NCBI GenBank assembly: GCA_965224845.1
Contig: CBDDAJ010000036.1
Location: 32,724-96,723, forward strand
Direction of reading: 5' to 3'
Length of the DNA: 64,000 bases
Source: Wocania sp.
Lineage (GTDB): Bacteria > Bacteroidota > Bacteroidia > Flavobacteriales > Flavobacteriaceae
Shown: piece after piece, positions 21,076 to 57,120 of the stretch
Layout of the letters: each line of letters starts with the position of its first letter
How positions within the stretch are numbered: the first letter of the stretch is position 1
Notes under the pieces: model-generated
Told to the model about the DNA's origin: nothing
What the model saw: the letters and a program-made list of their open reading frames with translations, nothing else
The model's database searches: none
Made by a program: the position numbers and the translations under genes

Positions 21076-21645
21076 TTAAAGCCTTAAAATAATTACTTCC
21101 CAGGTCTGGTTATTTGCCCTGTAATTTTTTAAAAGTTCAAAACCTACAGCTTTATGTGCATTGGATGAGCGTGTGTTTTTAGTATCTACCTCGGTAATAA
21201 TAGCATCAAAATCATGTTTAAGCTCTTGAGCCATATAGTTATATAACCCTCTAAAAACACCTTGGCCTCTCATTTTTTTGTCAATACATATTTGCCCCAT
21301 TGCAATATAGTTAGAGACTTCTTTTTGTTGTTTGATTGCTTTTTCTATTTGAATAAACATAGGCACTAATAACGGAATATCGTTTTGAAACTTTTTAAGC
21401 ATTGATAAAGCATAGCCTACAACTTTACCTTTGTGCTTTACGATACAATGCGCACATGCATCATTCATTTTTTTTAGCATGCTAAAATCATGCTGCAAAG
21501 TTACAAAACCTTCTTTCTCTTTGATTTCATCAGAAACTAAATGCCGTAGGTTCTGCTCTTGAAGTTTTAAAATTTGATTTAACTCTTCAGTAGTTGATGC
21601 TCTGTGGTATGTCATGTTAGTCTCCAATATATTCCAGAATATCAC
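21076..21645 (-). CDS. GNAT-family N-acetyltransferase
   Basis: 189 aa. Acetyl-CoA binding pattern KKMRGQGVFRGL. Confidence 0.7.
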   Translation of the reverse strand: MIFWNILETNMTYHRASTTEELNQILKLQEQNLRHLVSDEIKEKEGFVTLQHDFSMLKKMNDACAHCIVKHKGKVVGYALSMLKKFQNDIPLLVPMFIQIEKAIKQQKEVSNYIAMGQICIDKKMRGQGVFRGLYNYMAQELKHDFDAIITEVDTKNTRSSNAHKAVGFELLKNYRANNQTWEVIILRL

Positions 21646-21823
21646 CAGGTTGGCAGTCGAGGGCTTTGCATATGGCTTCTAATGTAGAGAATCGAATAGC
21701 CTTTGCTTTCCCCGATTTTAATATCGATAAATTTGCTGTAGTTATACCAATAATTTCTGCCAAATCTTTACTTTTCATTTTACGTTTAGCAAGTACAACA
21801 TCTAAATTAACAATTATTGACAT
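21617..21823 (-). CDS. XRE-family helix-turn-helix transcriptional regulator (Cro/C1-type)
   Basis: 68 aa. KMKSKDLAEIIGITTANLSILKSGKAKAIRFSTLEAICKAL. Overlaps the GNAT start by 29 nt. Confidence 0.75.
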   Translation of the reverse strand: MSIIVNLDVVLAKRKMKSKDLAEIIGITTANLSILKSGKAKAIRFSTLEAICKALDCQPGDILEYIGD

Positions 21824-21826
21824 AGT

Positions 21827-22330
21827 TTATATGGTTAATTTGTCTTCTTCTTCCAATTGGCTTCCTTTTAAAAACACTTCGCTTAAAAACATAAAAAATA
21901 AGCCCATAATTAAAAATAAGACCACAGAAGCATCCATACCCAATTGAAAATTATTTTTTAAGGTTAGATTTAAAACTATTTTAGCAACAACCTCGCCCAG
22001 CCCGCAAATTAAAAAAAGGATGCCTATTGTTTTAAAATTACTAATTACCAATTTTGAAAAATAATGCCCTTCAGACAACTCATACACACTATGCCTAAGC
22101 AATTTAATGGCCTTAAAATAGAGCCCCCAAAGCAAGGCCACCAAAATTAAAATTATTGCCATATTTAAACTACTTAAATTATTTAAGTCTACCTCTTCCC
22201 CTAAAAACTTAATCACATATTTCTTTTTGAGTATCAGTAATGGTATCGTTAGTATTCCTATTATTAAAACTAATATTAATAAATAATAGTAGATATTAAT
22301 TAACCGCTTTAAAATATTAATTGCTTTCAT
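21827..22330 (-). CDS. DUF2975-like 4-TM membrane protein (commonly paired with a downstream XRE HTH gene)
   Basis: 167 aa, four hydrophobic helices. Immediately upstream of the XRE gene with a 3-nt spacing. Confidence 0.55.
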   Translation of the reverse strand: MKAINILKRLINIYYYLLILVLIIGILTIPLLILKKKYVIKFLGEEVDLNNLSSLNMAIILILVALLWGLYFKAIKLLRHSVYELSEGHYFSKLVISNFKTIGILFLICGLGEVVAKIVLNLTLKNNFQLGMDASVVLFLIMGLFFMFLSEVFLKGSQLEEEDKLTI

Positions 22331-22441
22331 ATAAAATTATTGTTTAACGATAACAAATATAGATTAAAATTATTGAAAAACAATAATTTTTTATTTAAAA
22401 AAGATAATATTTTAATCATGCTGTGTTTTTTGAAGAACTAA

Positions 22442-23014
22442 TTGCTCTTTGTATATTTGATTTACATGAACAAAAACATTATAGTTTCTGAAAGTAGAAG
22501 ACCCTATTGGCAAATACCTTTAGCCACTCTTTTTTTTACTGCCGGAATTGGCACTTTATTATACTCCATATATAGAATGCATTGGAATGATGCTAGTTTG
22601 AAGCTATTGGGGCATAATATAGAGTCTGTTATATACTTATTTGCTATTGGAATAGGTTTATGCTATCAAAAAAGTGTTTATATAGATATAGAAAAATCAA
22701 GATTCAGATCAACTTTTGAAATAGGTCCAATTAAGTTAGGCCAATGGAAAACTATATTTAACTATGAATATGTTTCCCTATTTCATCAACCACTAGATGA
22801 TGGCAATAAAATATTTGAAGTTAATTTATGGTATGATAGAAATAAACATTGGGAACTCTATGAAAAATACAATTTTGAAGATGCCTTTAAAATAGCTTTC
22901 GAATTATCAGAACTATTAAGTATTGATTTGCTGGATGCGACCGTACCAAACGATTTTAAATGGATTGATAAAACGGCTTCAAAAGAAACCGGCAAAATTG
23001 TATACTCCAATTAA
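22442..23014 (+). CDS. Hypothetical 2-TM membrane protein, paralog of 32751..33233, immediately upstream of bioF
   Basis: Shared motifs G.WK....EYVS.F, NL(W/F)Y.RN, DAF..A.....L.I..LDAT with the second copy. Confidence 0.5.
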   Translation: MLFVYLIYMNKNIIVSESRRPYWQIPLATLFFTAGIGTLLYSIYRMHWNDASLKLLGHNIESVIYLFAIGIGLCYQKSVYIDIEKSRFRSTFEIGPIKLGQWKTIFNYEYVSLFHQPLDDGNKIFEVNLWYDRNKHWELYEKYNFEDAFKIAFELSELLSIDLLDATVPNDFKWIDKTASKETGKIVYSN

Positions 23015-23031
23015 CTTGCTACATTTGTTTT

Positions 23032-24201
23032 ATGGATCAATTTCCCAAAAAGCTAAAAGAAAAACTTGATACTCGAAAAGCAGCTAATGCGTTACGGCAA
23101 CTTAATGATCAACAAAATTTAGTAGATTTTTCGTCAAACGATTATTTAGGGTTTTCAAAGTCTCAAATAATTTTTGATAATGCACATCAATTTTTAATTA
23201 ACCATAATATAAAACAAAATGGTGCAACGGGCTCGCGTTTGCTTTCGGGAAATCATGCACTTTATAACATCGTAGAGAATATTATATCTGAGTTTCATAA
23301 CAGCGAAGCAGCTATAGTATTTAATTCGGGGTACGATGCAAATGTTGGTTTTTTTAGCTGTATACCTCAGCGTAATGATATTATTTTTTACGACGAATAC
23401 ATACATGCTTCCATACGTGATGGAATTAAACTTTCAAATGCTAAGGCTTATAAGTTTAAACATAACCATTTAGAAGCTTTAGATGAAATGTTGAAACGCG
23501 TTCAACATAAGGGTAATATATATATTGTTACAGAATCTGTATTTTCAATGGATGGAGATATTCCAGATTTAGCTACTATGTGTAACATAAGTAAAAAACA
23601 CAAGGCCTATTTAGTTGTTGATGAAGCACATGCCATTGGTGTTTTTGGGGAGCGCGGCGTTGGTTTAGTTCAAAAACTAAACTTAGAAAAAGACCTTTTT
23701 GCACGCTTAGTTACTTACGGAAAAGCTATGGGTGCCCATGGTGCCGCCATTCTTGGCAGCCAAACGCTAAAGCAATACCTTATTAATTTTTCTCGTAGCT
23801 TTATTTATACTACGGCATTACCTCCACACAGTTTAGCAACAATTCAAGCGGTATATAACGAACTTGTTATTTCTAATCCAAACAAAACATCGCATCCTAA
23901 TATTTATAAGCTGCATCAAAACATTCAATGTTTTAAGACAGAAATTGTAAAGCAAAATCTTCAAAACCACTTTATTAAAAGTAATTCTGCTATACAATGT
24001 TGTATCCTTTCAGGAAACCAAAAAGTAAAACAGATTGCAAAAAAGCTTCAGGAGCATCATTTTAATATAAAGCCCATTTTATCGCCTACCGTTACAAAAG
24101 GAGAAGAACGTTTGCGTTTTTGTTTACATAGCTATAATTCAGAAAAAGAAATTGTAGAAGTTTTACAGCTGTTAACTACTTTTGTAACAAAGTTATACTA
24201 A
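23032..24201 (+). CDS. bioF: 8-amino-7-oxononanoate synthase
   Basis: Class-II aminotransferase-like PLP enzyme. Context with bioD and bioA. Confidence 0.8.
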   Translation: MDQFPKKLKEKLDTRKAANALRQLNDQQNLVDFSSNDYLGFSKSQIIFDNAHQFLINHNIKQNGATGSRLLSGNHALYNIVENIISEFHNSEAAIVFNSGYDANVGFFSCIPQRNDIIFYDEYIHASIRDGIKLSNAKAYKFKHNHLEALDEMLKRVQHKGNIYIVTESVFSMDGDIPDLATMCNISKKHKAYLVVDEAHAIGVFGERGVGLVQKLNLEKDLFARLVTYGKAMGAHGAAILGSQTLKQYLINFSRSFIYTTALPPHSLATIQAVYNELVISNPNKTSHPNIYKLHQNIQCFKTEIVKQNLQNHFIKSNSAIQCCILSGNQKVKQIAKKLQEHHFNIKPILSPTVTKGEERLRFCLHSYNSEKEIVEVLQLLTTFVTKLY

Positions 24202-24238
24202 ACGCGTTTGGGTATCTCATTAAATTTACAATTTTATC

Positions 24239-24616
24239 ATGATAGATCATTATACCATATTAGCAACGTTTCCTTACTCAACAGAAGCTCAGGTAACAAA
24301 AGCTAAACTAGAAGCAGAAGGCCTTCGCGTTATGTTATTGGATGAAAAAACTGTAGATTCCGATCCATTAATTAGTCAAGCTATTGGCGGTGTAAAACTA
24401 TTAGTTCATAATGATAATGTAAAAGAAGCTATAAAAATTTATAACCAGATAAGGTATTATGAAAAAGACAAGAATGGAAAAGAAGTGGTTTGTATAAATT
24501 GTGGTTCGACAAAAATATTGATTGCAGAACCGTCCAGAAAAAATATTTTTTATATGCTCTTCCCTTTTTTTGAAAAAACAAAATACCGCTGTAACGTTTG
24601 TAATACCACTTTTTAA
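24239..24616 (+). CDS. Small DUF2007-like (PII-fold) protein with C-terminal zinc-ribbon (CINCGS...CNVC)
   Basis: 125 aa. Embedded between bioF and bioD; stop overlaps the bioD start. Confidence 0.4.
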   Translation: MIDHYTILATFPYSTEAQVTKAKLEAEGLRVMLLDEKTVDSDPLISQAIGGVKLLVHNDNVKEAIKIYNQIRYYEKDKNGKEVVCINCGSTKILIAEPSRKNIFYMLFPFFEKTKYRCNVCNTTF

Positions 24617-25224
24617 TGAAAACATATTTTATAACAGGAATTTCAACCGAAGTTGGTAAAACAATAGCATCAGCTATAGTAACAGAAGCATTAGAGGCCG
24701 ACTATTGGAAACCCGTACAAGCTGGAGAGCTAGATAATTGTGATACGATAAAAGTAAAAAAGCTGATATCGAACTCTAAATCAAAGTTTCACCCAAACAC
24801 TTATGCTTTGCATACACCTATGAGTCCGCATGCAGCAGCCGAAATTGATAAGGTATCTATAGGTATTAAAAAAATTATACCTCCAAAAACAAGCAACCAT
24901 TTAGTTATAGAAGGCGCTGGCGGATTATTAGTGCCTTTAAACAATACAAACACTATTTTCGATTTAATTAAACCAGATTATAAGGTTATTGTTGTATCCA
25001 GACATTATTTAGGAAGTATTAACCATACCCTTTTAACAGTAAACGCATTAAAAGCGAAAGGCTTTAATGTCTCAATTATTTTTAGTGGAACCGAGCACAA
25101 ATCAACCGAAAGTATTATCAAAAAAATGACTCAAGTTCCCGTTATAGGGAGAATTGACGAAGAGCCTTATTTTGATAAAAATGTAATCAAAGAATATGCA
25201 GAATTGTTTAAAGAAAATTTATGA
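24616..25224 (+). CDS. bioD: Dethiobiotin synthetase
   Basis: P-loop ITGISTEVGKT. CobQ/CobB/MinD/ParA-type fold. About 200 aa. Confidence 0.85.
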   Translation: MKTYFITGISTEVGKTIASAIVTEALEADYWKPVQAGELDNCDTIKVKKLISNSKSKFHPNTYALHTPMSPHAAAEIDKVSIGIKKIIPPKTSNHLVIEGAGGLLVPLNNTNTIFDLIKPDYKVIVVSRHYLGSINHTLLTVNALKAKGFNVSIIFSGTEHKSTESIIKKMTQVPVIGRIDEEPYFDKNVIKEYAELFKENL

Positions 25225-26486
25225 CCCTACAAGAACGCGATAAAAAACACCTTTGGCATCCGTTAAAGCAACACCAAACCCAACCCAACAGTTTAGCCAT
25301 AACTAAAGCAAAAGGATGTATTCTAACCGATGAAAATGGCAACGAATATATTGATGCTATTGCCTCCTGGTACACCTGCATGTATGGACATTGCAATGCT
25401 TATATCACGAGTCGAGTTTATAAGCAAATGCAGCAATTGGATCAGGTTATGTTTAGTGATTTTACACACGAACCAGCAATAAGGTTATCGGAAGAACTCA
25501 TAAAAATACTTCCTGAAAATCAAAATAAAATTTATTTTAACGATAATGGCTCTACGGCTGTTGAAGCTGGCATTAAAATGGCGCTTCAGTATTACTATAA
25601 CAAAGGCGAAAAACGCTCAACTTTTATTGCCTTTGAAAACGGATTCCATGGCGATACCTTTGGTGCCATGAGTGTATCAGGATTATCAGTATACAATGGC
25701 CCTTTCGAAGATTTTTTAATAGATGTTAAACGTATACAAACCCCAAATGGGTTAAATACTGATGCTATTATAAATCAGCTAAAAGACTTTGCTTTAAACC
25801 ATGATATTGCCGGCTTTATATACGAACCTTTAATACAAGGTGCTGCCGGTATGAAAACCCATGATGCAAATGGGTTAAACAATATTTTAAAATTTTGTAA
25901 AGACAATAATATACTTACCATTGCTGATGAAGTTATGACTGGTTTTGGAAAAACAGGCCGTTATTTTGCTTCAGATTATCTTGATACTAAACCCGATATA
26001 ATCTGCCTGAGTAAAGCCTTAACTGCAGGATTGCTTCCTATGGCAATTACCTCTTGTTCCCAGGATATTTACAATGCATTTTTAAGTAACGATATAGCCA
26101 AAGGGTTTTTCCATTGCCACACTTATTCTGCAAACCCCGTAGCCTGTGCTGCCGCTATTGCTGGTATTGAGCTTTTAACATCTCAAGACATTCAAGATAG
26201 CATCAAAAATATAATGCGCGCCCATAGTACATTCCAAAAACGCATTCAAAATCATCCAAAAATAAAATCTACAAGACATTTAGGTGTTATTTTTGCGCTG
26301 GACCTCAATACAAAAATGGAACGTTATGGCGATTTGCGCGATAAACTTTTAAAATTCTTTATGGATAGAGGGGTTTTCCTAAGGCCACTTGGTAATACTA
26401 TTTATATACAGGTTCCTTATGTAATTTCAGATATTGAATTACAGAAAGTTTATCAAAGCCTTGAAGACGTATTAGAAATTATTTAG
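25221..26486 (+). CDS. bioA: Adenosylmethionine-8-amino-7-oxononanoate aminotransferase
   Basis: Class-III aminotransferase pattern (…ADEVMTGFGKTG…) with catalytic Lys. Start overlaps the bioD stop. Confidence 0.85.
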   Translation: MTLQERDKKHLWHPLKQHQTQPNSLAITKAKGCILTDENGNEYIDAIASWYTCMYGHCNAYITSRVYKQMQQLDQVMFSDFTHEPAIRLSEELIKILPENQNKIYFNDNGSTAVEAGIKMALQYYYNKGEKRSTFIAFENGFHGDTFGAMSVSGLSVYNGPFEDFLIDVKRIQTPNGLNTDAIINQLKDFALNHDIAGFIYEPLIQGAAGMKTHDANGLNNILKFCKDNNILTIADEVMTGFGKTGRYFASDYLDTKPDIICLSKALTAGLLPMAITSCSQDIYNAFLSNDIAKGFFHCHTYSANPVACAAAIAGIELLTSQDIQDSIKNIMRAHSTFQKRIQNHPKIKSTRHLGVIFALDLNTKMERYGDLRDKLLKFFMDRGVFLRPLGNTIYIQVPYVISDIELQKVYQSLEDVLEII

Positions 26487-26590
26487 GGCTTAGTACCCCT
26501 TTCGGCTTACTTCGACTTCGCTCAGCATTTGTGCTAAAGATTAGGGCTTATAATTTACCCTGAACGAAGTAGAAGCGCTATAGCTTTTTT
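26487..26590. repeat. GC-rich mosaic intergenic element E2 (cttcgacttcgctcagcat motif; long imperfect hairpin) directly after the bioA stop
   Basis: Shares 20/22 nt with E1 (cttcgac[g/t][a/t]cgctcagca). gcttacttcg / cgaagtagaagc arms form a stem. Confidence 0.55.
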
Positions 26591-26613
26591 AATTTTTTTG
26601 AAAATTAAAAAGG

Positions 26614-27837
26614 TTGCCTCTTCTATCCCTAACACATAAGTCTTACTTTTGTCAAAATAAAAAAATGTTGCAAAACCCTATTTCCATTACAGCACTTTCA
26701 TCCATTTCTCCATTGGGAAAATCCTTAAATGAAGCATGGAATAGCTATCAAAACAATCGACATCATATTTCAGAAAAAACATTTGAAAATGGCAAAGCTT
26801 TGGTAGCTCAAATTTCTGCAGAAGCAAAACAAGACATTAAAGCTTTAAGACTTTCTGACAATAAATACAAAACATTAGATCATACCGTTTTATATGCTAT
26901 TTACGCTTCTCGACAGGCAATAAAACATGCTAATTGGAAAGGGACTGATAATTTTGGAATAAATATTGGTTCTTCTCGTGGTGCTACTCAACTCTTTGAA
27001 AATTATCACAAAGATTTTCTAAAAAACAATAAAGCAAAAACTTTAAGTTCCCCAACCACGACATTAGGTAATATTTCCTCTTGGGTAGCACACGACTTGC
27101 AAACTCAGGGACCAGAAATAAGTCATTCAATAACCTGTTCAACAGCGCTACATGCTATGCTAAACGGGGTAGCCTGGATAAACTCTGGGATGTGCAGTAA
27201 GTTTTTAGTTGGTGGCAGCGAAGCTCCTTTAACATCATTTACTATAGCACAAATGCAGGCCTTAAAAATTTATGCTAATCAAAATAGCGCCTTTCCCTGT
27301 CGAGCATTAGATCTATCTAAAAAACAAAATAGTATGGTTTTAGGTGAAGGTGCATCAATGATTTGCTTAGAAGCAGGTAAAACAAGTAATGCCTTAGCCA
27401 CTATAAAAGGGGTTGGCTATGCTACAGAGGTTTTAGAACATAATATCTCCATTTCAGCAGATGCTAAATGCTTTCAAAAATCGATGCGAATGGCTCTAGG
27501 GAATCTAAATCCTGGCGACATAGATATTATAGTAATGCATGCCCCAGGAACCGTAAAAGGGGACCTTTCAGAACACAAAGCTATTGAAACCGTTTTTAAA
27601 AGCAATGTTCCTGCATTAACAAGCAACAAATGGAAAATAGGACACACCTTTGGAGCATCAGGAGCTTTAAATATTGAGCTGGCAGTTTTAATGTTACAAC
27701 ATCAGCAATTTATAGGGTTACCCTATATAAAAAATAAAAGCGCACCTAAAAAAATAAAAAACATCCTTGTAAATGCTGTTGGTTTTGGGGGCAATGCTGT
27801 AAGTATTTTGGTTTCAAAAAATTCTATCAATGAATAA
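26614..27837 (+). CDS. Beta-ketoacyl-ACP synthase I/II-like (Cys-His-His) enzyme inside the biotin cluster
   Basis: Active-site region ITCSTALHAM. His motifs VMHAPGT and KIGHTFGASG. 407 aa. Confidence 0.7.
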   Translation: MPLLSLTHKSYFCQNKKMLQNPISITALSSISPLGKSLNEAWNSYQNNRHHISEKTFENGKALVAQISAEAKQDIKALRLSDNKYKTLDHTVLYAIYASRQAIKHANWKGTDNFGINIGSSRGATQLFENYHKDFLKNNKAKTLSSPTTTLGNISSWVAHDLQTQGPEISHSITCSTALHAMLNGVAWINSGMCSKFLVGGSEAPLTSFTIAQMQALKIYANQNSAFPCRALDLSKKQNSMVLGEGASMICLEAGKTSNALATIKGVGYATEVLEHNISISADAKCFQKSMRMALGNLNPGDIDIIVMHAPGTVKGDLSEHKAIETVFKSNVPALTSNKWKIGHTFGASGALNIELAVLMLQHQQFIGLPYIKNKSAPKKIKNILVNAVGFGGNAVSILVSKNSINE

Positions 27838-28240
27838 AATTAACATAGTTACTCTCTTTTTTTCTATTCTGTTTTTGGGATTTTCATGTCAAAATCAAAA
27901 CAATAAGCAAGCTACTCCTTTGGCAAGCTTTAACGGGGTTTGGGAAGATGTTAATACTGATGACTTTAAGAATTGCTACGCTATATATTCTGAAGTTGGA
28001 GATAGTATACATATCGCCCACTATATCGAATTTAAAGGACAGCCTTTTTTTGAAACGGGCTCAGGAATAATTAAAGGCGATTCTATTATTTATCATGTAA
28101 ATGTTATAAAACCTATTCCGGCTTGGGGTCCAGACGGTGGTACACATTATTTAAAACTAAGTGAAGATAAAAATACACTAAAAGGAATTTTTATTACAGA
28201 TGGAGGTCATAAAGGCCCTTTGGTTTTTAAAAGAAAATAA
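27830..28240 (+). CDS. Hypothetical lipoprotein
   Basis: Lipobox LGFSC. 136 aa. No recognisable domain. Confidence 0.4.
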   Translation: MNKINIVTLFFSILFLGFSCQNQNNKQATPLASFNGVWEDVNTDDFKNCYAIYSEVGDSIHIAHYIEFKGQPFFETGSGIIKGDSIIYHVNVIKPIPAWGPDGGTHYLKLSEDKNTLKGIFITDGGHKGPLVFKRK

Positions 28241-28262
28241 AGGTTTTAATGTTAAAGTAATT

Positions 28263-29186
28263 TTAGCGTTCTAAGACGTTTTTTAAAATCGTTTCGCATA
28301 AATAATGTGTGTCCCAAATATCTTGAATGCGATTAGAATTAAAATCAGGCTCATTTAAAGCTTGTAACCAATCTTCAATTAAATCGACAAAGCCTCTTTT
28401 ATATAAGGTACTATCCCAATTATTAAAACCTATGGATTGTTTCGTTTCATTTTTAAAAAGAGCACCAGAAACCAATTCTTCAATTTGCCATTTATTACCC
28501 TTAGAATAGTATTCGATATGCTCTTCAGTAACACCACTAATCCTATTCATAGAACCACTTAACAGTGTTTTATTTTGTTGCCATTGTACATGAATACTTT
28601 CCAGCAAATCATTATTCGTTTTTGAAAAAACTTGAAGGTTTTTAATAACACCGTTTCCTAAAAAGCGAAGACTATCTATAACATGAATAAAATCATCAAA
28701 AATAAAAACCCGAGGTGTAGCAGGTAAATTTGTTCTATGCTTCTTCCAAAAAATATGAGTAGGATTTTGTTCCTTTTTTAGCGACGAAATCAAAGGAGCA
28801 AATCGCCTATTGAACCCTAAATATAAAAGTACCTTATGCTGTGTCGCTATATTTAGTAATGTTTCCGTTTCCTGTAAAGTATAGCAAAGAGGTTTATCAA
28901 CAAAAACAGGGATCCTAGCTTCCAGCAACTTTAAGGCCAATTGAAAATGACTTTCTGTAGAGCTATGTAACATAACGGCATCAGGCTTATTTGCAACTAA
29001 AGACTCTATATCTAAATAAGCTTCATCAATTCTGTACTGCGTAGCCAACTCTTTTAAAACCTTTTTATTCCTTGTACAAAGAATCGGTGTAACTAACGCA
29101 TGATTTGCAATTATTGGTAAATATGCTTTTTTAGCAATGTCGCCTAAACCAACAAGTGCTATCCTTTTTTTTTGTGAATTATCCAT
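28263..29186 (-). CDS. Gfo/Idh/MocA-family NAD(P)-dependent oxidoreductase
   Basis: Rossmann N-terminus IALVGLGDIAKKAYLP. Confidence 0.75.
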   Translation of the reverse strand: MDNSQKKRIALVGLGDIAKKAYLPIIANHALVTPILCTRNKKVLKELATQYRIDEAYLDIESLVANKPDAVMLHSSTESHFQLALKLLEARIPVFVDKPLCYTLQETETLLNIATQHKVLLYLGFNRRFAPLISSLKKEQNPTHIFWKKHRTNLPATPRVFIFDDFIHVIDSLRFLGNGVIKNLQVFSKTNNDLLESIHVQWQQNKTLLSGSMNRISGVTEEHIEYYSKGNKWQIEELVSGALFKNETKQSIGFNNWDSTLYKRGFVDLIEDWLQALNEPDFNSNRIQDIWDTHYLCETILKNVLER

Positions 29187-29239
29187 TGGTCTAATTTAAT
29201 CACTTTCTTATAAATGTAACTCCTATACTATGAAATTAA

Positions 29240-30370
29240 GTGTTATATTTATTGAAATCCATCACCATAATGAGGTTTCTTTTTTTAATAATCATTCTCT
29301 CCTTATTAAGTTGCAACCCTAATAGTGTTAATCCCATTGATAAGGTGCTCGCTTCGAGTAATACAAAAATTAAAACAGTAACAAATGCTATTGAAACCTA
29401 CGAGGTTCAAATTTTATTTACCGAAGTTAAAAGAACTAAAGACTCTGTTTATTTTAATGATTATAATTTTCAGGTCAATGACAGCAATTATTTTTATCCG
29501 GCTAGTACTGTAAAATTCCCTATTGCTCTATTAGCACTGGAGAAAATGAAAGCCAACAAATTAATTGATAGACATACCGTTTTTAATATTGAAGGCGATA
29601 GCACTAAAACCACATTTACTAACGAAATAAAAAACATATTTGCAGTAAGCGACAATGCTGCCTATAATAGGTTGTATGAGTATTTAGGAAAGGATTATAT
29701 TAATTCTAAACTTCAGGAAAAAGGTATAAATGCCAGGATATCTCATAGGTTATCTGTAGCCAATTCTGCAGAATTAAAAACAAAACCTCTTGTTTTTTAC
29801 CGTGAGAATCAAGTGATTTTTAAAACGGACTCAACAATAAGCCAACCCACAAAACCTTTAAACTTAAATAAAGTTAAAAAAGGCAAAGGTTATATGATTA
29901 AAGATAGCTTGGTTAGCACTGCTATGGATTTTTCATTAAAAAACTATATATCTATAACAGCGTTACATCAAATAATGAAACAATTTATGTTTCCTGAATT
30001 ATATGATTATAGTAAGCAATTTCATTTAACAAAAGACGACAGAGCTTTTTTAATAAATGCCATGAAAATGTTGCCTCATGAAGCAGGCTATATCACTGAT
30101 GAATATTATGAAAGTTATGTAAAGTTTTTAATTTTTGGCGATTCAAGAAAGCCCATTCCAAAGCATATAAACATATATAATAAAGTAGGGAATGCATATG
30201 GTTACTTAACAGATTGCGCATACATTGTAAATAAAAAAACGAAGAGAGAATATATAATAACCGCTACAATACACCTTAATAAAAATCAAATCTTTAACGA
30301 TAATGTTTACGAATATGAAACTGTTGGTTTTCCTTTTTTAGCTGAATTAGGCAGGCAGTTAATTGAGTAA
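29240..30370 (+). CDS. Secreted serine hydrolase of the class-A beta-lactamase-like family
   Basis: Signal/lipobox. S-x-x-K motif STVK. SDN-like motif (VSDN). Confidence 0.55.
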   Translation: MLYLLKSITIMRFLFLIIILSLLSCNPNSVNPIDKVLASSNTKIKTVTNAIETYEVQILFTEVKRTKDSVYFNDYNFQVNDSNYFYPASTVKFPIALLALEKMKANKLIDRHTVFNIEGDSTKTTFTNEIKNIFAVSDNAAYNRLYEYLGKDYINSKLQEKGINARISHRLSVANSAELKTKPLVFYRENQVIFKTDSTISQPTKPLNLNKVKKGKGYMIKDSLVSTAMDFSLKNYISITALHQIMKQFMFPELYDYSKQFHLTKDDRAFLINAMKMLPHEAGYITDEYYESYVKFLIFGDSRKPIPKHINIYNKVGNAYGYLTDCAYIVNKKTKREYIITATIHLNKNQIFNDNVYEYETVGFPFLAELGRQLIE

Positions 30371-30704
30371 ACACTTATAATAACCCCTGCAATACTTATC
30401 TAATTCAAACCCTCAGAATAAAAAAGTATTTCCTTAAAGCAAAAAATATTTTGTAACAAAAAATAAATTCCATCTACTTATTAAGTAGAGAACAGATCAT
30501 GCCTTTAGAGTATTCACTGCTTTATCTTTTTAATCTCTTGTTGTTTACAGAATTAAAGTCAATAAAAAAGCTTAATACATGTGGACTAAAGTTAATGGCT
30601 TTAGTAAAAAAACACTGTATATTTTACTTTTAAAATAATACTGTTAGAAGCTGTTTTCTTGTCAGAAAAGTTTATATTTATTCAACTAAAAAATCAATTT
30701 TATT

Positions 30705-31280
30705 ATGGTAGAATGGTATTCAAATTTAGAGCTCTTTCCTAAAATATATTGGAGCATTGCTTTACTGGGATCTTTAGTTTTTCTTATCACAATGGTTTTA
30801 TCATTTGTAGGAGGAGATACGGATGATATAGGTGATGTAGATAGTGATATTGAAGGAGATACTGGTATTGGTTTTCAATTTATAACCTTTAAAAACTTAG
30901 TAGGCTTTTTTACCTTATTTGGATGGAGTGGTATTGCCTGTATAGATGCCGGATTTTCAAAACCATTAACTATAATAATATCTATAGTTTGCGGATTGAT
31001 TATGATGGGGATTATGGGGGCTATGTTTTATTATATGAATAAGCTTAACCACAGTGGGACTTTAAATTTTAAAAATGCTGTAAATGCTGTAGGTGAAGTC
31101 TATTTAACTGTAGGAGCCAATAGGTCGTCAATAGGAAAAGCTCACGTAAGAATTCAAGGAGCTTTAAGAGAGCTTGAAGCCTTAACAGATGCTGATACCG
31201 ATTTAGAATCTGGCTCTGTAATACAAGTAAAAGAAGTAACAGAAAACGGAATATTAATTATTGAAAAACTAAACAAATAG
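30705..31280 (+). CDS. NfeD-like (YuaF/YqiJ-type) membrane protein, partner of flotillin
   Basis: N-terminal TM helices plus C-terminal OB-like domain. 3-nt gap to the flotillin gene. Confidence 0.55.
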   Translation: MVEWYSNLELFPKIYWSIALLGSLVFLITMVLSFVGGDTDDIGDVDSDIEGDTGIGFQFITFKNLVGFFTLFGWSGIACIDAGFSKPLTIIISIVCGLIMMGIMGAMFYYMNKLNHSGTLNFKNAVNAVGEVYLTVGANRSSIGKAHVRIQGALRELEALTDADTDLESGSVIQVKEVTENGILIIEKLNK

Positions 31281-31283
31281 CCC

Positions 31284-32717
31284 ATGCTACTATTAACAAC
31301 CCAAGATGCCTTTAATTTAGGCTTTCCTTTTGCAGTCATTTTTGCTGTATTATTTATTTTTATCTTTTTTATTGTACTTATTAAACGCTACAAACGCTGT
31401 CCTTCAGACAGAATATTAGTTGTTTATGGTAAAGTTGGTGGCGGACAGTCTGCAAAATGTATTCATGGTGGCGCAGCTTTCATTATGCCAGTAATTCAAG
31501 ATTATGAGTTTTTAGATTTAACACCAATTTCTATTGAGGTTAATCTTATAAATGCTCTTTCTAAACAAAACATACGTGTAAATGTGCCGTCTCGATTTAC
31601 AATTGGTATTTCTACCGAACCGGGAATTATGCAAAATGCTGCTGAAAGGCTATTAGGTTTAGGGCAAAATGAAATTCAAGAGTTAGCACAAGAAATTATT
31701 TTTGGTCAATTACGTTTGGTAGTAGCCTCTATGGATATAGAAGAAATTAATTCTGACAGAGACAAGTTTTTAACCAACATTTCTAAAAGTGTAGAATCTG
31801 AACTTAAAAAAGTAGGTTTAAAATTAATTAACGTAAACATCACAGATATAGTTGATGAATCTGGTTATATTGAGGCTTTAGGAAAAGAAGCTGCAGCGCA
31901 TGCCATTAATGCCGCAAGAAAGTCTGTTGCCGAAAAAAACAGAGATGGTTCTATTGGTGAAGCAAATGCTTTACAAGACGAACGCACACAGGTAGCAGCT
32001 GCAAATGCGCAAGCCGTAGATGGAGAAAATACAGCAAAAATAGCTGTTGCAAATTCGGATTCGTTACGTCGTCAGCGAGAAGCTGAAGCAGAACGTGTAG
32101 CAATAGCTTCAGAAAAAGTACAAACAGCTAAAGCCTTAGAAGAATCGTATGCTGCAGAAAAAGAAGCAGAACTTGCCAGAGCAGAAAGAGAGCGTTCTTC
32201 TCAGCAAGCAGATATTATTGTCCCTGCAGAAATTGATAAAAGAAAAGTAGAAATTGATGCTGAAGCTGAAGCTGAGAAAATTAGAAGACGTGCTAAAGGA
32301 GAGGCTGATGCCATTTTGTTTAAAGCTCAAGCTGAAGCTAAAGGCTTATATGAAGTCTTAACAAAGCAAGCTGCCGGTTTAGATCAAATTGTAAAAGCCG
32401 CTGGTAACAACTCAAAAGATGCTGTTCTATTACTAATTGCTGATAAACTACCCGAATTAGTAAAAACACAAGCTGAAGCTATTAAAAATATTAAAATTGA
32501 TAAAGTTACCGTTTGGGAAAATGGCAGTGGAAAAGATGGTAAATCTTCAACCTCAAACTTTATTTCTGGCATGTACAAGTCGGTTCCACCATTGCAAGAA
32601 ATGTTTAATATGGCTGGCATGCAATTGCCTGAATATTTAAAAGGGAAAGACATAGAAGCCGAAAAACAAGATTCCTCAGTAAAAAAGGATGACACTAATT
32701 CTGAAGGAAAAGAATAA
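31284..32717 (+). CDS. Flotillin-like SPFH/band-7 protein (FloT/YqiK family)
   Basis: N-terminal membrane anchor, SPFH domain, long E/A-rich (EA-repeat) coiled-coil. Confidence 0.85.
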   Translation: MLLLTTQDAFNLGFPFAVIFAVLFIFIFFIVLIKRYKRCPSDRILVVYGKVGGGQSAKCIHGGAAFIMPVIQDYEFLDLTPISIEVNLINALSKQNIRVNVPSRFTIGISTEPGIMQNAAERLLGLGQNEIQELAQEIIFGQLRLVVASMDIEEINSDRDKFLTNISKSVESELKKVGLKLINVNITDIVDESGYIEALGKEAAAHAINAARKSVAEKNRDGSIGEANALQDERTQVAAANAQAVDGENTAKIAVANSDSLRRQREAEAERVAIASEKVQTAKALEESYAAEKEAELARAERERSSQQADIIVPAEIDKRKVEIDAEAEAEKIRRRAKGEADAILFKAQAEAKGLYEVLTKQAAGLDQIVKAAGNNSKDAVLLLIADKLPELVKTQAEAIKNIKIDKVTVWENGSGKDGKSSTSNFISGMYKSVPPLQEMFNMAGMQLPEYLKGKDIEAEKQDSSVKKDDTNSEGKE

Positions 32718-32750
32718 AACACAAGTTCGGCTATATTATTTAAGTAAACT

Positions 32751-33233
32751 ATGAATAATACCACTTTACAGCATTTAAGAAAAGTTCCCACAATGAAATT
32801 AATTTTTGGAGTCGTGCTGTTCTGCTTAGGCATAATTGGAGCTGTAACCAACAATATTTTCAATTTAGTTTTATCTGGTATTGGTGTTTTTTTAATGCAG
32901 CGCGAAGGTTCTCAAATCGATTTGGCATCTAAACGCTATAGAGAAATACGATCCATAATGGGAATAATTATTGGGAAATGGAAGGATTTACCTGATGTTG
33001 AATATGTTTCTGTATTCAAAACAAAAGAAAATAAAAGAGTACAAGCCATGGGAGCATCTACTAAATTTACGAATCAAGTTTATAAATTAAATCTGTTTTA
33101 TAATAGAAATAGAAAGATTGAAGCTTATATTACCGATGATATTCAAGATGCTTTTGAAAACGCAAAATATATAGCACAGGTATTAAATATAAAGATTTTA
33201 GACGCTACTGAAAGAGAATCTAAATGGTTATAA
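32751..33233 (+). CDS. Hypothetical 2-TM membrane protein, paralog of 22442..23014, immediately upstream of bioB
   Basis: Same conserved motifs as the paralog upstream of bioF. Confidence 0.5.
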   Translation: MNNTTLQHLRKVPTMKLIFGVVLFCLGIIGAVTNNIFNLVLSGIGVFLMQREGSQIDLASKRYREIRSIMGIIIGKWKDLPDVEYVSVFKTKENKRVQAMGASTKFTNQVYKLNLFYNRNRKIEAYITDDIQDAFENAKYIAQVLNIKILDATERESKWL

Positions 33234-33239
33234 CTATTT

Positions 33240-34355
33240 TTGTCAAAAATATATCTCCAAATGAGCGAAACAAGACACAACTGGACCAAAGAAGAAATAT
33301 TAGATATATATAACAAACCTTTAATGGAGTTGCTTTATGAAGCAGCTACTATTCATAGAGAGCAGCATGACCCAAATGTTGTACAGGTAAGTACATTACT
33401 ATCTGTTAAAACTGGGGGCTGTTCAGAAGACTGTGGCTATTGTCCGCAAGCTGCGCGTTACCATACTAATATAGAAGGAAACGATCTTATGAGTGTTCAG
33501 CAGGTAAAAGCACAAGCTCTTAGAGCTAAAGAAGGTGGAAGCTCACGTGTATGTATGGGTGCTGCATGGCGTAATGTAAAGGATGGCGAAGAGTTTGATC
33601 AGGTTTTGGAAATGGTACGTACCATTAATAAGCTAGATATGGAAGTATGCTGTACTTTAGGAATGCTTACCGAAAACCAGGCAAAACGACTGGCAGAAGC
33701 AGGGCTATATGCTTACAATCATAATTTAGATTCGTCAGAAGAATACTATAAAGAAGTAATTTCTACGCGTGGATATCAAGATCGTTTAGATACTATAGAA
33801 AACGTACGTAAAACCAATGTTACGGTTTGTAGTGGTGGTATTATTGGAATGGGTGAAAATTTAGAAGATCGTGCTGGGATGTTAGTTGCCTTATCCACTT
33901 TAAATCCACAACCAGAATCAACCCCCATAAATGCTTTAGTAGCTGTTGAAGGCACGCCATTGGAAGATCAAAAACCTGTTTCTATTTGGGATATGATACG
34001 TATGGTAGCTACGACAAGAATCGTTATGCCAGAAACACAAGTACGCTTAAGTGCCGGTAGAACACAAATGACTCGCGAAGGACAAGCTTTATGTTTCTTT
34101 GCAGGGGCAAATTCTATTTTTGCTGGTGATAAACTTTTAACAACACCCAATCCTGATGTAAATGAAGACATGAAAATGTTTGAATTGTTAGGAATGAAAC
34201 CTCAAAAGCCGTTTACCAAAAAAGTGCAGCCACAAACAGTTGAAGCCAAAGACTCTCAATACGAAGCATTAGGGGAAAAACCAAGATGGACCCGCCCCGA
34301 GCATACTATTGAGCGTAATGAAGCTGCGAAAGAAAAAGGGAAATTGGTTAAGTAA
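33240..34355 (+). CDS. bioB: Biotin synthase (radical SAM) with about 50-aa C-terminal extension
   Basis: CSEDCGYCPQ radical-SAM cluster motif. Conserved BioB core. Confidence 0.9.
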   Translation: MSKIYLQMSETRHNWTKEEILDIYNKPLMELLYEAATIHREQHDPNVVQVSTLLSVKTGGCSEDCGYCPQAARYHTNIEGNDLMSVQQVKAQALRAKEGGSSRVCMGAAWRNVKDGEEFDQVLEMVRTINKLDMEVCCTLGMLTENQAKRLAEAGLYAYNHNLDSSEEYYKEVISTRGYQDRLDTIENVRKTNVTVCSGGIIGMGENLEDRAGMLVALSTLNPQPESTPINALVAVEGTPLEDQKPVSIWDMIRMVATTRIVMPETQVRLSAGRTQMTREGQALCFFAGANSIFAGDKLLTTPNPDVNEDMKMFELLGMKPQKPFTKKVQPQTVEAKDSQYEALGEKPRWTRPEHTIERNEAAKEKGKLVK

Positions 34356-34394: not shown

Positions 34395-34585
34395 TGTTTA
34401 CTGATAACTGCCCACTGCAAACCAGCCCGCGTTAGGGATTGATGCGGCATCCTTTTTTAAAATAAATAAAATGCTCTTTATTTAGAGCTAAAATTTAAGA
34501 GATACCCACGTTTGTTTCTTCTTGCTATGACGCAAAAAAGATATAGCGGAAAGCCCGACCTGCAAGGTAACGCCCAAATACTATT
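34395..34585. repeat. GC-rich mosaic intergenic element E3 (contains gcgttagggattga, as in E1)
   Basis: Exact 14-nt match to E1. Locally elevated GC. Confidence 0.5.
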
Positions 34586-51398: not shown

Positions 51399-51644
51399 CT
51401 AATTTGGACGGTGACCGTTAAGACTATCTTTATTTACCATATTAATACTATCTAATTTTACTTTAATAGAGTCTACTATATTAATATTTTTCTTCTTCAA
51501 ATCAGACTTAATTTCCTGAACAGCTTCAATTGTTTTAACTGAAGCTTTTCCAAACCCAACACTTGCATTATAATAAAAAAATGCTGTTGCTATTAACAAT
51601 AAAACAAATAGCGATATTAATATAATTTTATTTTTTTTCATCAT
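51399..51644 (-). CDS. Small (81 aa) signal-peptide/TM protein; reading frame is open upstream into an rhs-derived YIYDATGVKLKKIVS segment
   Basis: ORF track. Hand translation of the upstream minus strand gives ...SYNISHIYDATGVKLKKIVS directly in frame before MMKKNK. Confidence 0.4.
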   Translation of the reverse strand: MMKKNKIILISLFVLLLIATAFFYYNASVGFGKASVKTIEAVQEIKSDLKKKNINIVDSIKVKLDSINMVNKDSLNGHRPN

Positions 51645-51763
51645 GCTTACTATTTTTTTAAGCTTAACACCAGTGGCATCGTAAATATGAGAAATATTAT
51701 AACTATATGAAATACAAAAGCTACTCTAGTTTTTAGAATAGCTTTTGTTTATTTTGCTTACTC
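51645..51763. repeat. Junction module copy b, hairpin half plus rhs-derived segment (interrupted by IS at 51764)
   Basis: gcttactatttttttaagcttaacaccagtggcatcgtaaat...acaaaagctactctagtttttagaatagcttttgtttattttgcttaCTC. Confidence 0.75.
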
Positions 51764-51802
51764 TGTCTTGTCCTGAAATAGGTTTACACAAAAGTGTAAC
51801 AA

Positions 51803-52180
51803 ATGGAAAGATATACTAAGACATCTTCATCAAAATTTCAAAATAGATATAGTGAAGAGTTCAAACAATTTTTATGTAATGAATTTCTAACGGGAACTGC
51901 AACTAGAAAATCAATCGAAAAGAAGTATAATATAGGTAATAACCAATTGACTGTTTGGTTAAAGAAATTAGGATATGACTATTCAAAACCCAGTATTGTA
52001 CCTTTGCCCTCAATGGCAAATCAACCGGACAAATTATCAAATAAAGAAAAAAACTCTTTATCTCAATTAGAGAAGGAACTTGTAGAAGCTCGATTATTAG
52101 CTGAAACTTATAGGAAAATGATTGAAATTGCAGAGAATGAATTTAAAATAAAGATTGTAAAAAAGTCCAATACCAAGTAA
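51803..52180 (+). CDS. IS3-family transposase OrfA (HTH)
   Basis: 125 aa. HTH plus leucine-zipper-like C-terminus. Slippery AAAAAAG near the 3-prime end. Confidence 0.9.
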   Translation: MERYTKTSSSKFQNRYSEEFKQFLCNEFLTGTATRKSIEKKYNIGNNQLTVWLKKLGYDYSKPSIVPLPSMANQPDKLSNKEKNSLSQLEKELVEARLLAETYRKMIEIAENEFKIKIVKKSNTK

Positions 52181-52188
52181 TCCAAGAG

Positions 52189-53100
52189 ATGAAAAACCTA
52201 TATCCAAAGGTAAGCTTAGGCAGGTTCTGCCGATTACTTGGTGTTACCCGTCAAGCATATTATCAACATTTTTGGTATCGTGAACAATTATCTTTTGAAG
52301 AAGATTTAATTGTGTCCGAAGTACATAAGATTAGAAAAAATCATCGCCATATGGGAGGCAGAAAACTATATGAACTATTACAACCATTTTTATTAGCACA
52401 TCAAATAAAAATGGGAAGAGATCGGCTATTCGATATTTTATCAGCTAATTATCTTTTGGTTAGACGTAAAAAGAAACAAACAATAACTACAAATTCTTTC
52501 CATAGGTTTAAGAAATATTCAAACCTGATTAAGAAGTTTATTCCTGATAAACCAAATCAATTATGGGTAAGTGATATCACATATTGGAAAATCGAAACTG
52601 GTTTTGTTTATATTAGTTTTATAACAGATGCTTATTCTAGAAAAATTGTCGGTTATCATTTAGCTGATAGTTTAATGACCTCAGAGACAATCAAAGCATT
52701 ACAGATGGCAATATTCAATCTACCAGAAGGCTTAATAGATAAGTCTAAATTGATACATCATTCAGATAGAGGAACTCAGTATTGTAGTAACGAATATGTA
52801 AAATTGTTGCAAACCAATAACATTGAAATTAGTATGGCTGAAAACGGTGACCCGCTAGAAAATGCAATTGCAGAACGGGTTAATGGAATTATTAAGGAAG
52901 AATATCTCAACGATTATCAATTAGAGAATATAAAAACAGCTAAAGAATTACTTGATACTGTTGTTAATCTATATAATAATGAAAGACCACATATGAGCAT
53001 AGGTAATCTTACTCCTAATCAAGTACATCAAAACAATATAAAAATCGAAAAACTATGGAAAAATTATTATCTAAAAAGCCCTATTATTGTAAACCGATAA
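52189..53100 (+). CDS. IS3-family transposase OrfB (DDE/rve integrase core; expressed as OrfAB by -1 frameshift)
   Basis: Candidate DDE residues in WVSDITY, HSDRGTQY and the ...ENAIAERVNG region. Confidence 0.9.
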   Translation: MKNLYPKVSLGRFCRLLGVTRQAYYQHFWYREQLSFEEDLIVSEVHKIRKNHRHMGGRKLYELLQPFLLAHQIKMGRDRLFDILSANYLLVRRKKKQTITTNSFHRFKKYSNLIKKFIPDKPNQLWVSDITYWKIETGFVYISFITDAYSRKIVGYHLADSLMTSETIKALQMAIFNLPEGLIDKSKLIHHSDRGTQYCSNEYVKLLQTNNIEISMAENGDPLENAIAERVNGIIKEEYLNDYQLENIKTAKELLDTVVNLYNNERPHMSIGNLTPNQVHQNNIKIEKLWKNYYLKSPIIVNR

Positions 53101-56692: not shown

Positions 56693-56695
56693 CTC
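56575..56695. repeat. Junction module copy d, hairpin half (interrupted by IS copy 2 at 56696)
   Basis: Identical hairpin and ttattttgcttaCTC as copy b. Confidence 0.75.
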
Positions 56696-56734
56696 TGTCT
56701 TGTCCTGAAATAGGTTTACACAAAAGTGTAACAA

Positions 56735-57112: not shown

Positions 57113-57120
57113 TCCAAGAG

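What the first reader, a model, noticed from the sequence alone, without database searches (positions are those of the whole stretch)
22442..33233. Two paralogous small 2-TM proteins, each placed directly upstream of a biotin-synthesis gene (bioF and bioB)
ORFs 22442-23014 and 32751-33233 share an unmistakable motif set: IDxxxxR(F/Y)R, GxWK....EYVSxF, NL(W/F)YxRN, DAFxxA......LxIxxLDAT. They are otherwise uncharacterised. One precedes bioF by 17 nt, the other precedes bioB by 6 nt, 10 kb apart. Duplicated placement next to two separated biotin genes suggests a biotin-linked role, e.g. membrane sensor, transporter accessory or regulator, for an undescribed family.
Basis: seen in the sequence. 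Interest (0 to 1): 0.55.

Follow-up and report, generated by a model that had tools for sequence, protein, structure and literature searches.

The report
Paralogous membrane proteins flanking biotin genes
Two related small membrane proteins really do sit just upstream of bioF and bioB, but comparison with about 150 related loci shows this is mostly inherited gene order in one group of marine Flavobacteriaceae, and the proteins look like membrane-anchored PH-domain adaptors of the EROS/Ycf4 type with an unknown partner.

Summary
ORFs 22466-23014 (TMa, 182 aa) and 32751-33233 (TMb, 160 aa) are paralogs (31% identity, E 2e-18). TMa ends 17 nt before bioF. TMb ends 27 nt before the true bioB start, not 6 nt.

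The biotin link is only partly supported. Of 98 well-flanked loci:
- 22 have a family member adjacent to a bio enzyme gene.
- 12 have a bio gene nearby.
- 39 carry a MocR regulator plus TonB receptor in the same slot.
- 24 have nothing biotin-related.

bioB comes and goes among close relatives while TMb stays. Four of five bio clusters found through BioB have no family member within 10 kb. The two copies probably derive from a tandem pair next to atpDC, and gene cassettes were later inserted around them.

I read them as adaptor or chaperone proteins with an unknown client. A biotin-specific role remains possible, at roughly 20-25%.

The parts
22466..23014 (+). TMa: 182-aa family member with an N-terminal strand, TM hairpin 16-36/42-66, PH-like beta-sandwich, helix 137-151 and a short C-terminal extension
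32751..33233 (+). TMb: 160-aa paralog with the same architecture (TM hairpin 14-32/37-49, strands 51-128, helix 131-145, strand 148-152)
22430..22460 (+). Bacteroidota-type promoter candidate for TMa: TTTG at 22430-22433, a 19-nt spacer, then TATATTTG at 22453-22460, ending 5 nt before the ATG
   Evidence: Sequence. The same TAnnTTTG box lies immediately before the start codon in most of the 12 TM-then-bioF loci inspected and in 25 of 63 TMa-type genes. It occurs before 0 of 64 atpD/atpC and 0 of 83 NfeD/flotillin starts. The consensus itself is from my own knowledge of Bacteroidota promoters.
23020..23027 (+). TACATTTG, a -7-like box 4 nt before the bioF ATG, inside the 17-nt TMa-bioF spacer. 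bioF may therefore have its own promoter.
   Evidence: Sequence. A TAnnTTTG box lies within 12 nt of the bioF start in 12 of 29 loci.
23032..24201 (+). bioF (context gene downstream of TMa)
   Evidence: TIGR00858 E 2e-101. Pfam Aminotran_1_2.
24239..24616 (+). DUF2007-like protein with a Cys-rich C-terminus that looks like a zinc ribbon, embedded between bioF and bioD. Like the TM genes, it is retained where the bio enzymes are missing.
   Evidence: Weak DUF2007 and Zn-ribbon hits. Its ORF end coincides with the bioD start at 24616. Retained beside TM and MocR/TonB-receptor genes without bio enzymes in L091-L099, L059, L060 and L062.
24616..27837 (+). bioD, bioA and a FabF-like ketoacyl synthase (the rest of the bio cluster; context)
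30705..32717 (+). NfeD-like gene plus flotillin. This is the commonest upstream neighbour of TMb-type genes. It ends 33 nt before TMb with no terminator between them.
   Evidence: NF058507 FloT E 1e-48. Flotillin is adjacent to a family member in 34 of 98 loci. No terminator found.
33235..33242 (+). TATTTTTG, a -7-like box in the TMb-bioB spacer, 18 nt before the bioB ATG at 33261
   Evidence: Sequence. Palindrome and box listing.
33261..34355 (+). bioB (context gene downstream of TMb), followed by an intrinsic terminator at 34427-34447
   Evidence: TIGR00433 E 7e-120. 364-aa orthologs. Terminator.
22335..22390 (.). Two related palindromes (AATTATTG-N5-CGATAACA at 22335-22355; AAAATTATTG-N5-CAATAATTTT at 22366-22390). 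They are assigned to the divergent DUF2975/HTH_26 pair, not to the bio genes.
   Evidence: Conserved only in loci that carry that divergent pair (L082, L083, L104 and the window) and absent from the other TM-then-bioF loci.

Best explanation
TMa and TMb are real, expressed paralogs of an uncurated family known only from Flavobacteriaceae-type bacteria. They are small inner-membrane proteins of about 160-180 aa.

Structure (shown by prediction): a short N-terminal beta-strand, an N-in/C-in transmembrane hairpin, then a six-to-seven-stranded beta-sandwich capped by a C-terminal helix. This is a PH-like domain split by a membrane hairpin. It is the same layout and size as the membrane-protein chaperone EROS/CYBC1, and as Ycf4 (Ycf4's layout is from my own knowledge).

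Mechanism (inferred by analogy): the hairpin docks on a partner membrane protein. The cytoplasmic PH-like domain contacts the partner's cytosolic face or a soluble factor, so the protein acts as an adaptor, assembly or stabilising factor. The client is unknown. Tandem and fused two-copy versions suggest the working unit holds two or more copies.

Position (shown by comparison): the placement next to bioF and bioB is largely positional inheritance. The family's ancestral home is a rearrangement-prone block: atpDC - TM(-TM) - ... - cupin - RecX. Cassettes are swapped around the TM genes in this block. They include bioF-DUF2007-bioD-bioA-KAS, bioB, a MocR regulator plus TonB receptor, NfeD-flotillin, and umuDC. 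In this genome the two copies ended up at the 5' side of bioF and of bioB.
For: Fold:
- AF2 pLDDT is 85.7 and 88.3, with identical element order in both paralogs.
- EROS is described as two antiparallel TM helices that separate its PH domain, followed by six strands and a C-terminal helix (PMC11161758).

Family size: 1,468 clusters at E <= 1e-3, including fused two-copy proteins. Tandem or fused copies lie next to atpDC in L084, L136 and L140.

Positional reading:
- Of 98 well-flanked loci, 22 are adjacent to a bio enzyme gene, 12 have one nearby, 39 have MocR/TonB receptor instead, 1 has only the DUF2007-like gene, and 24 have none.
- The commonest immediate neighbours are flotillin (34), atpC (17), cupin (14), bioB (12) and bioF (7).
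- In Flavobacterium, atpDC-bioFDA-KAS-TM (L070, L076, L078) alternates with atpDC-MocR-TonB receptor-TM (L053, L061, L072, L075).
- 'TM then bioB' and 'TM then cupin' are interleaved among sister sequences.
- BioB-anchored clusters in Tenacibaculum, Aquimarina, Seonamhaeicola and Mariniflexile have no family member within 10 kb.
- bioF and bioB each have their own -7-like box in the spacer.
Against: - The EROS resemblance rests on predicted structures at moderate Z. There is no sequence support: the Pfam scan at E <= 1 returned no Ycf4 or bacterial-PH hit, the PDB profile search found nothing, and Foldseek found nothing at E < 0.06.
- No client protein is identified.
- The link to the biotin locus is much stronger than random. 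73 of 98 loci carry bio enzymes or the MocR/TonB-receptor module, and that module is itself tightly coupled to bioB in L003, L005, L009 and L146. Even divergent fused members lie 1.7-3.2 kb from a bio cluster.
- The TM and DUF2007-like genes are retained together in loci that keep only the putative salvage module. That would fit a biotin-related role common to synthesis and salvage.
- Whole genomes could not be scanned, so I do not know whether genomes lacking bio genes at this locus lack them altogether.
Confidence: 0.5

Rival explanations
1. Biotin-linked accessory proteins. The TM proteins, perhaps together with the DUF2007-like protein, serve biotin or vitamer handling at the inner membrane. 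They might stabilise or regulate an uptake component, or sense a vitamer. This role would be needed by both the biosynthetic and the salvage versions of the locus.
For: - TM-then-bioF adjacency with a conserved promoter in front of TM appears in many genera.
- TM-then-bioB adjacency appears in 14 of 80 loci.
- 73 of 98 loci carry bio enzymes or the MocR/TonB-receptor module.
- That module replaces the bio operon in situ and is coupled to bioB.
- A MocR-type repressor, BioL, controls bio genes in Weeksellaceae (PMC12704756).
- TM and DUF2007-like genes are retained beside MocR/TonB receptor where the enzymes are lost.
- There is no terminator between TMa and bioF, or between TMb and bioB.
Against: - 24 of 98 loci have no biotin-related neighbour. 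Examples include atpC-TM followed by unrelated opposite-strand genes.
- Four of five BioB-anchored clusters of the same composition lack any family member.
- bioB toggles while TMb stays.
- atpDC, cupin and RecX are equally conserved neighbours with no biotin role.
- The MocR protein scores best as PdxR-like and the receptor as BtuB-like, both below cut-off, so their biotin role is itself unproven.
- No shared operator was found.
Confidence: 0.22
2. Partner of the NfeD-flotillin membrane-microdomain system. TMb would be the third gene of an NfeD-FloT-TMb operon and act with flotillin scaffolds.
For: - Flotillin is the single most frequent immediate upstream neighbour, in 34 of 98 loci.
- The gaps are 19-177 nt. 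In the window the gap is 33 nt, with no terminator and no -7 box before TMb.
- 0 of 83 NfeD/flotillin starts have a proximal -7 box, and only 14 of 76 TMb starts do.
Against: - The adjacency is confined to one clade (Winogradskyella, Algibacter and relatives).
- Sister genomes have KAS-TMb-bioB without NfeD-flotillin (L001, L006, L041, L046).
- TMb lies upstream of NfeD in L036.
- Seonamhaeicola and Xanthomarina have NfeD-flotillin at this locus without TMb.
- TMa-type and Flavobacterium members have no flotillin neighbour.
Confidence: 0.12
3. ATP-synthase-associated factor. The TM gene directly follows atpD-atpC and, like Ycf4 or EROS, helps assemble a membrane complex, in this case the F-ATPase.
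For: atpC is the immediate upstream neighbour in 17 of 98 loci. This is the rule among the most divergent members, those at 31-38% identity.
Against: - All 23 atpC-TM spacers examined contain a strong GC-rich hairpin followed by a T-run, so the TM gene is not co-transcribed with atpDC.
- In many genomes several kb of SOS or bio genes lie between them.
- Tenacibaculum has atpDC followed by tatA and no TM gene.
Confidence: 0.06

Closest known systems
EROS / CYBC1 (and, by its reported relationship, plastid Ycf4): small membrane-protein assembly chaperones
   Same: - Size is about 160-190 aa.
- An N-terminal strand is followed by two antiparallel TM helices that split a PH-like domain, then six to seven strands and a C-terminal helix (PMC11161758).
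- One UniRef record even carries the name 'Ycf4'. I suspect such names are automatic predictions.
   Different: - There is no detectable sequence similarity (Pfam scan at E <= 1; PDB profile search).
- The host is a non-photosynthetic bacterium with no NOX2 or PSI client.
- There is an extra conserved strand after the helix (ILDAT) and a conserved K-W at the C-terminus.
- The client is unknown.
Bacterial PH-domain membrane proteins (bPH_2; YdbS/YdbT type)
   Different: No Pfam bPH family matches at E <= 1 in any of 33 members. The structural score is lower than for EROS. There is no bacteriocin or sigma-W context.
S-2TMBeta (SMODS-associated 2TM beta-strand-rich effector of CBASS-type defence)
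   Same: Two TM helices plus a beta-rich domain. Several UniRef records carry this name.
   Different: PADLOC and Pfam give no match. No cyclase or other defence gene is among the neighbours in about 150 loci. The genes are chromosomal and syntenic, not in defence islands.
Non-enzymatic genes embedded in bio operons (for example the MocR-type repressor BioL of Weeksellaceae)
   Same: The genes sit inside or next to a bio cluster in the same bacterial order (PMC12704756).
   Different: The TM proteins have no DNA-binding or ligand-binding domain of a known type. They are not required neighbours of bio clusters.

Membership tests
Ycf4 / EROS (CYBC1) chaperone family | TM hairpin inserted in a PH-like beta-sandwich with a C-terminal helix, about 180 aa | tested here: met
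Ycf4 / EROS (CYBC1) chaperone family | Sequence match to the family profile (Pfam Ycf4 or the EROS family) | tested here: not met
   No such hit at E <= 1 in any of 33 members. A profile search against PDB sequences finds no EROS.
Ycf4 / EROS (CYBC1) chaperone family | Binds and stabilises a specific client membrane complex | not testable with these tools
   Needs pull-down or genetics.
Bacterial PH domain (bPH_2, YdbS/YdbT) | Match to the Pfam bPH profiles | tested here: not met
Bacterial PH domain (bPH_2, YdbS/YdbT) | Two TM helices followed by a PH fold | tested here: inconclusive
S-2TMBeta CBASS effector | Profile match, and a neighbouring SMODS or CD-NTase cyclase | tested here: not met
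   No PADLOC or Pfam match. No cyclase among the neighbour clusters.
Dedicated component of the biotin-synthesis operon | Family-wide co-location with bio enzyme genes | tested here: not met
   Of 98 loci, 22 are adjacent, 12 nearby, 39 have MocR/TonB receptor only, and 24 have none.
Dedicated component of the biotin-synthesis operon | Present in bio clusters found independently of the family | tested here: not met
   One of five BioB-anchored loci has a member (Xanthomarina, TMa-type). Four have none within 10 kb at profile E <= 10.
Dedicated component of the biotin-synthesis operon | Co-transcription or shared regulation with bio genes | tested here: inconclusive
   Spacers are short and lack terminators, but bioF and bioB have their own -7-like boxes. 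No BirA-type or shared operator was found. Needs RNA data.
Dedicated component of the biotin-synthesis operon | Genome-wide co-occurrence of the family with bio genes | not testable with these tools
Whole genomes could not be profiled.

The most novel reading that the evidence does not exclude
The family is a bacterial, non-photosynthetic counterpart of the EROS/Ycf4 split-PH chaperones. In Flavobacteriaceae its client would belong to the biotin acquisition machinery, for example an inner-membrane step shared by de novo synthesis and by a MocR-regulated TonB-receptor route for desthiobiotin or biotin. That would explain why the TM and DUF2007-like genes persist in both versions of the locus.
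Probability: 0.12. Interest if true: 0.6.

Novelty: new variant of a known kind. Interest (0 to 1): 0.3.

Why it matters
If the fold assignment is right, this is a large uncurated bacterial family with the unusual split-PH-plus-hairpin design. That design is so far known from chaperones of eukaryotic and plastid membrane complexes, so the family would offer a simple bacterial model for how such adaptors work.

The case also shows that tight spacing next to pathway genes, even duplicated, can arise from cassette shuffling in a conserved block rather than from shared function.

The by-products may matter more for vitamin ecology in marine Flavobacteriaceae than the two ORFs do. They are a MocR/TonB-receptor module that alternates with the bio operon and is coupled to bioB, a constant FabF-like synthase in the bio cluster, and an embedded DUF2007-like gene.

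Tried and rejected
- Family libraries. Pfam, NCBIfam and PADLOC scans of both proteins, 33 family members and 10 distant or fused members gave only sub-threshold noise.
- Source names. The names 'Ycf4' and 'SMODS-associating 2TM beta-strand rich effector' were not reproduced by any profile.
- Structure searches. Foldseek against PDB found nothing at E < 0.06. The afdb50 library was unavailable. A profile search against PDB sequences found only chance Csm5 hits at E 0.18.
- Operators. No BirA-type dyad lies near any bio gene. I first considered the perfect palindrome upstream of TMa as a bio operator. I rejected this because it is conserved only where the divergent DUF2975/HTH_26 pair is present. 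Its look-alikes at 52.8-58.0 kb lie in IS copies.
- Regulatory RNA. Rfam finds none in front of either gene.
- atpDC operon membership. Rejected because a terminator follows atpC in all 23 loci examined.
- MocR regulator as a BioL ortholog. This could not be shown. It scores best as PdxR-like, below cut-off, and no BioL sequence or operator was available from the papers.
- Source contig. Exact look-ups of the window's own proteins returned nothing.
- Motif greps. Searches for BCCP or BirA motifs near 'orphan' family members found accB/accC three to four genes away on the opposite strand in one clade (L028, L033). I treat this as coincidence.


Full report
**Observation**

The two ORFs are present on the + strand. 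Homologs and an identical 182-aa database protein place the first start at ATG 22466, so TMa runs 22466-23014. TMb runs 32751-33233.

BLASTP gives 31% identity over 123 residues, E 2e-18.

TMa stops 17 nt before bioF (23032). bioB most likely starts at ATG 33261, because its orthologs are 364 aa. The TMb-bioB spacer is therefore 27 nt rather than 6. A family profile finds only these two members in the 64-kb window.

**What the proteins are**

No Pfam, NCBIfam or PADLOC model matches them, 31 other members, or 10 distant or fused relatives. Word-indexed searches found 115 and 107 clusters at 90% identity, and every named one came from Flavobacteriaceae. An exhaustive profile search found 1,468 clusters at 50% identity with E <= 1e-3 and 507 at 1e-10. 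These include proteins of about 345-393 aa with two copies in tandem. The ones that carry names are again Flavobacteriaceae.

AlphaFold2 models are confident (pLDDT 85.7 and 88.3) and share one architecture:
- a short N-terminal strand
- two long hydrophobic helices
- six to seven strands
- an amphipathic C-terminal helix
- one more strand

Positive charges sit before helix 1 and after helix 2, and the N-terminal strand joins the sheet. This argues for N-in/C-in topology with a cytoplasmic domain (inference from the sequence).

EROS is described as two antiparallel TM helices that split its PH domain, followed by six strands and a C-terminal helix. It uses both parts to hold its client NOX2 (PMC11161758). 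The closest known design is therefore the EROS type of small membrane chaperone, and Ycf4 by my own recollection of its architecture. The resemblance is structural only. Sequence membership was tested and not met.

**Gene neighbourhoods**

I examined 80 loci from species-representative genomes, 57 metagenome loci fetched with a TMa profile, and 5 loci fetched through individual proteins.

TMa orthologs lie directly upstream of bioF in Flavivirga, Winogradskyella, Xanthomarina and many contigs. TMb-type genes lie directly upstream of bioB in 14 of 80 genome loci, and directly after the FabF-like synthase that closes the bioF-DUF2007-bioD-bioA-KAS cluster in 7.

Among the 98 loci with at least 2.5 kb on both sides:
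- 22 have a member adjacent to a bio enzyme gene.
- 12 have a bio enzyme gene elsewhere in the flank.
- 39 have a MocR-family regulator plus a small TonB-dependent receptor, and no bio enzyme.
- 1 has only the DUF2007-like gene.
- 24 have nothing related.

The most frequent immediate neighbours are flotillin (34), atpC (17), cupin (14), bioB (12), the TonB receptor (8), bioF (7) and the DUF2007-like gene (7).

The block has a conserved order: atpD-atpC, sometimes umuDC or DUF2975/HTH, then TM, then either the bio operon or DUF2007-MocR-receptor, then sometimes NfeD-flotillin, then TM, sometimes bioB, then cupin, a small outer-membrane protein and RecX. Individual cassettes are present, absent or transposed.

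In Flavobacterium, atpDC-bioF-bioD-bioA-KAS-TM (L070, L076, L078) alternates with atpDC-MocR-receptor-TM (L053, L061, L072, L075). In a neighbour-joining tree, 'TM then bioB' and 'TM then cupin' loci are interleaved among sisters. Examples are L013/L011, L016/L012 and window+L001 versus L002/L003. So bioB has been lost or moved repeatedly while TMb stayed.

The most divergent members simply follow atpC and are followed by unrelated opposite-strand genes. Tandem TM-TM pairs (L136, L140) and fused proteins (L084, L085) sit at the same place. This points to an old tandem duplication as the source of the two window paralogs.

**Reverse test**

I retrieved five bio clusters through BioB instead of through the family.
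- Tenacibaculum and Aquimarina (bioF-bioD-bioA-KAS-bioB), Seonamhaeicola (the same genes, with NfeD-flotillin and two ATP-grasp genes before bioB) and Mariniflexile (MocR-receptor-bioB) have no family member within 10 kb, even at profile E <= 10.
- Xanthomarina has a TMa-type gene before bioF, but flotillin abuts bioB with no TMb.

The family is therefore not a required part of these clusters.

**Transcription signals**

There is no terminator between TMa and bioF, or between TMb and bioB. One follows bioB.

A Bacteroidota-type -7 box (TAnnTTTG; the consensus is from my own knowledge) lies 4-7 nt before the start codon of TM genes in most TM-then-bioF loci and in 25 of 63 TMa-type genes. It is also found before 12 of 29 bioF genes. 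It is found before none of 64 atpD/atpC or 83 NfeD/flotillin starts.

In the window, TATATTTG precedes TMa, TACATTTG precedes bioF, and TATTTTTG lies in the TMb-bioB spacer. Each bio gene may thus have its own promoter, so co-transcription is not established.

No BirA-type dyad is present. The striking palindromes upstream of TMa are conserved only in loci with the divergent DUF2975/HTH_26 pair. All 23 atpC-TM spacers examined carry a strong intrinsic terminator, which rules out membership of the atpDC operon.

**Interpretation**

Best-supported reading (confidence about 0.5): these are EROS-type split-PH membrane adaptors with an unknown client, and their position beside bioF and bioB reflects cassette shuffling in a conserved block.

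The biotin-linked rival (about 0.22) is kept alive by three things:
- the high share of loci that carry either bio enzymes or the MocR/receptor module
- the tight coupling of that receptor to bioB in L003, L005, L009 and L146
- the joint retention of TM and DUF2007-like genes in both versions of the locus

However, the biotin role of that module is itself unproven. The regulator scores best as PdxR-like and the receptor as BtuB-like, both below cut-off. A flotillin partnership (about 0.12) and an ATP-synthase role (about 0.06) are weaker.

**Novelty and score**

The family is undescribed, but its kind, a small membrane-anchored PH-like protein, is known. The specific claim of a biotin function is not established. 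Interest is 0.3.

Noticed in passing
not in the window; L002-L079, L088-L121, L146 (e.g. L005 681-3612, L009 6517-11009, L146 6425-11095): A MocR/PdxR-like regulator (about 498 aa, minus strand) is paired with a small BtuB-like TonB-dependent receptor (about 610 aa, plus strand). This pair occupies the slot of the bioF-bioD-bioA-KAS operon in about 39 of 98 related loci. The receptor is tightly coupled to bioB: overlapping in L005, 7 nt in L009, 91 nt in L003 and 167 nt in L146. It is a candidate outer-membrane receptor for desthiobiotin or biotin in bioB-only Flavobacteriaceae. Compare BioL (PMC12704756) and desthiobiotin salvage (PMC9561691).
   Followed up: partly
window 26614-27837 (+): A FabF-like beta-ketoacyl synthase is a constant member of the bio cluster here and in Tenacibaculum, Aquimarina, Seonamhaeicola, Xanthomarina and others. 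No bioC/H/G/W/I/Z/E was seen in these clusters. It is a candidate provider of the pimeloyl moiety, analogous in role to the KAS III enzyme BioZ. A quick literature search found no description.
   Followed up: partly
window 24239-24616 (+): A 125-aa protein is wedged between bioF and bioD, and its ORF end coincides with the bioD start. It has a weak DUF2007 match and a Cys-rich C-terminus that looks like a zinc ribbon. In loci without bio enzymes it is retained between a TM gene and the MocR/TonB-receptor pair (L091-L099, L059, L060, L062). That makes it at least as good a candidate for a biotin-related accessory as the TM proteins.
   Followed up: partly
window 34420-34564 (+): A Flavo-1 RNA motif (RF01705, 43.3 bits against a gathering score of 42) overlaps the intrinsic terminator that follows bioB.
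   Followed up: no
window 51644-53100 and 56576-58032: Two nearly identical IS3-family insertion sequences (125-aa and 303-aa ORFs) lie inside a region of RHS/YD-repeat toxin genes (58764-62354 and a 375-aa C-terminal fragment at 55242-56369) with small orphan ORFs. Short repeats of 60-88 nt flank the cassettes.
   Followed up: partly
window 21617-22390: A divergent pair (DUF2975-like membrane protein 21827-22330 and a 68-aa HTH_26 regulator 21617-21823) shares two conserved palindromes (22335-22355 and 22366-22390) with the same pair in L082, L083 and L104. These are probably the operator of that regulator.
   Followed up: partly
L013, L081-L083, L143, L144 (absent from the window): [quoted passage not shown] It is missing in the window, where bioA and the synthase are 128 nt apart.
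   Followed up: no
L028, L033, L040, L067: In an Aequorivita/Ulvibacter-like clade the family member lies three to four genes from accC and accB (biotin carboxylase and the biotinylated carrier protein), on the opposite strand. This is probably coincidence.
   Followed up: no
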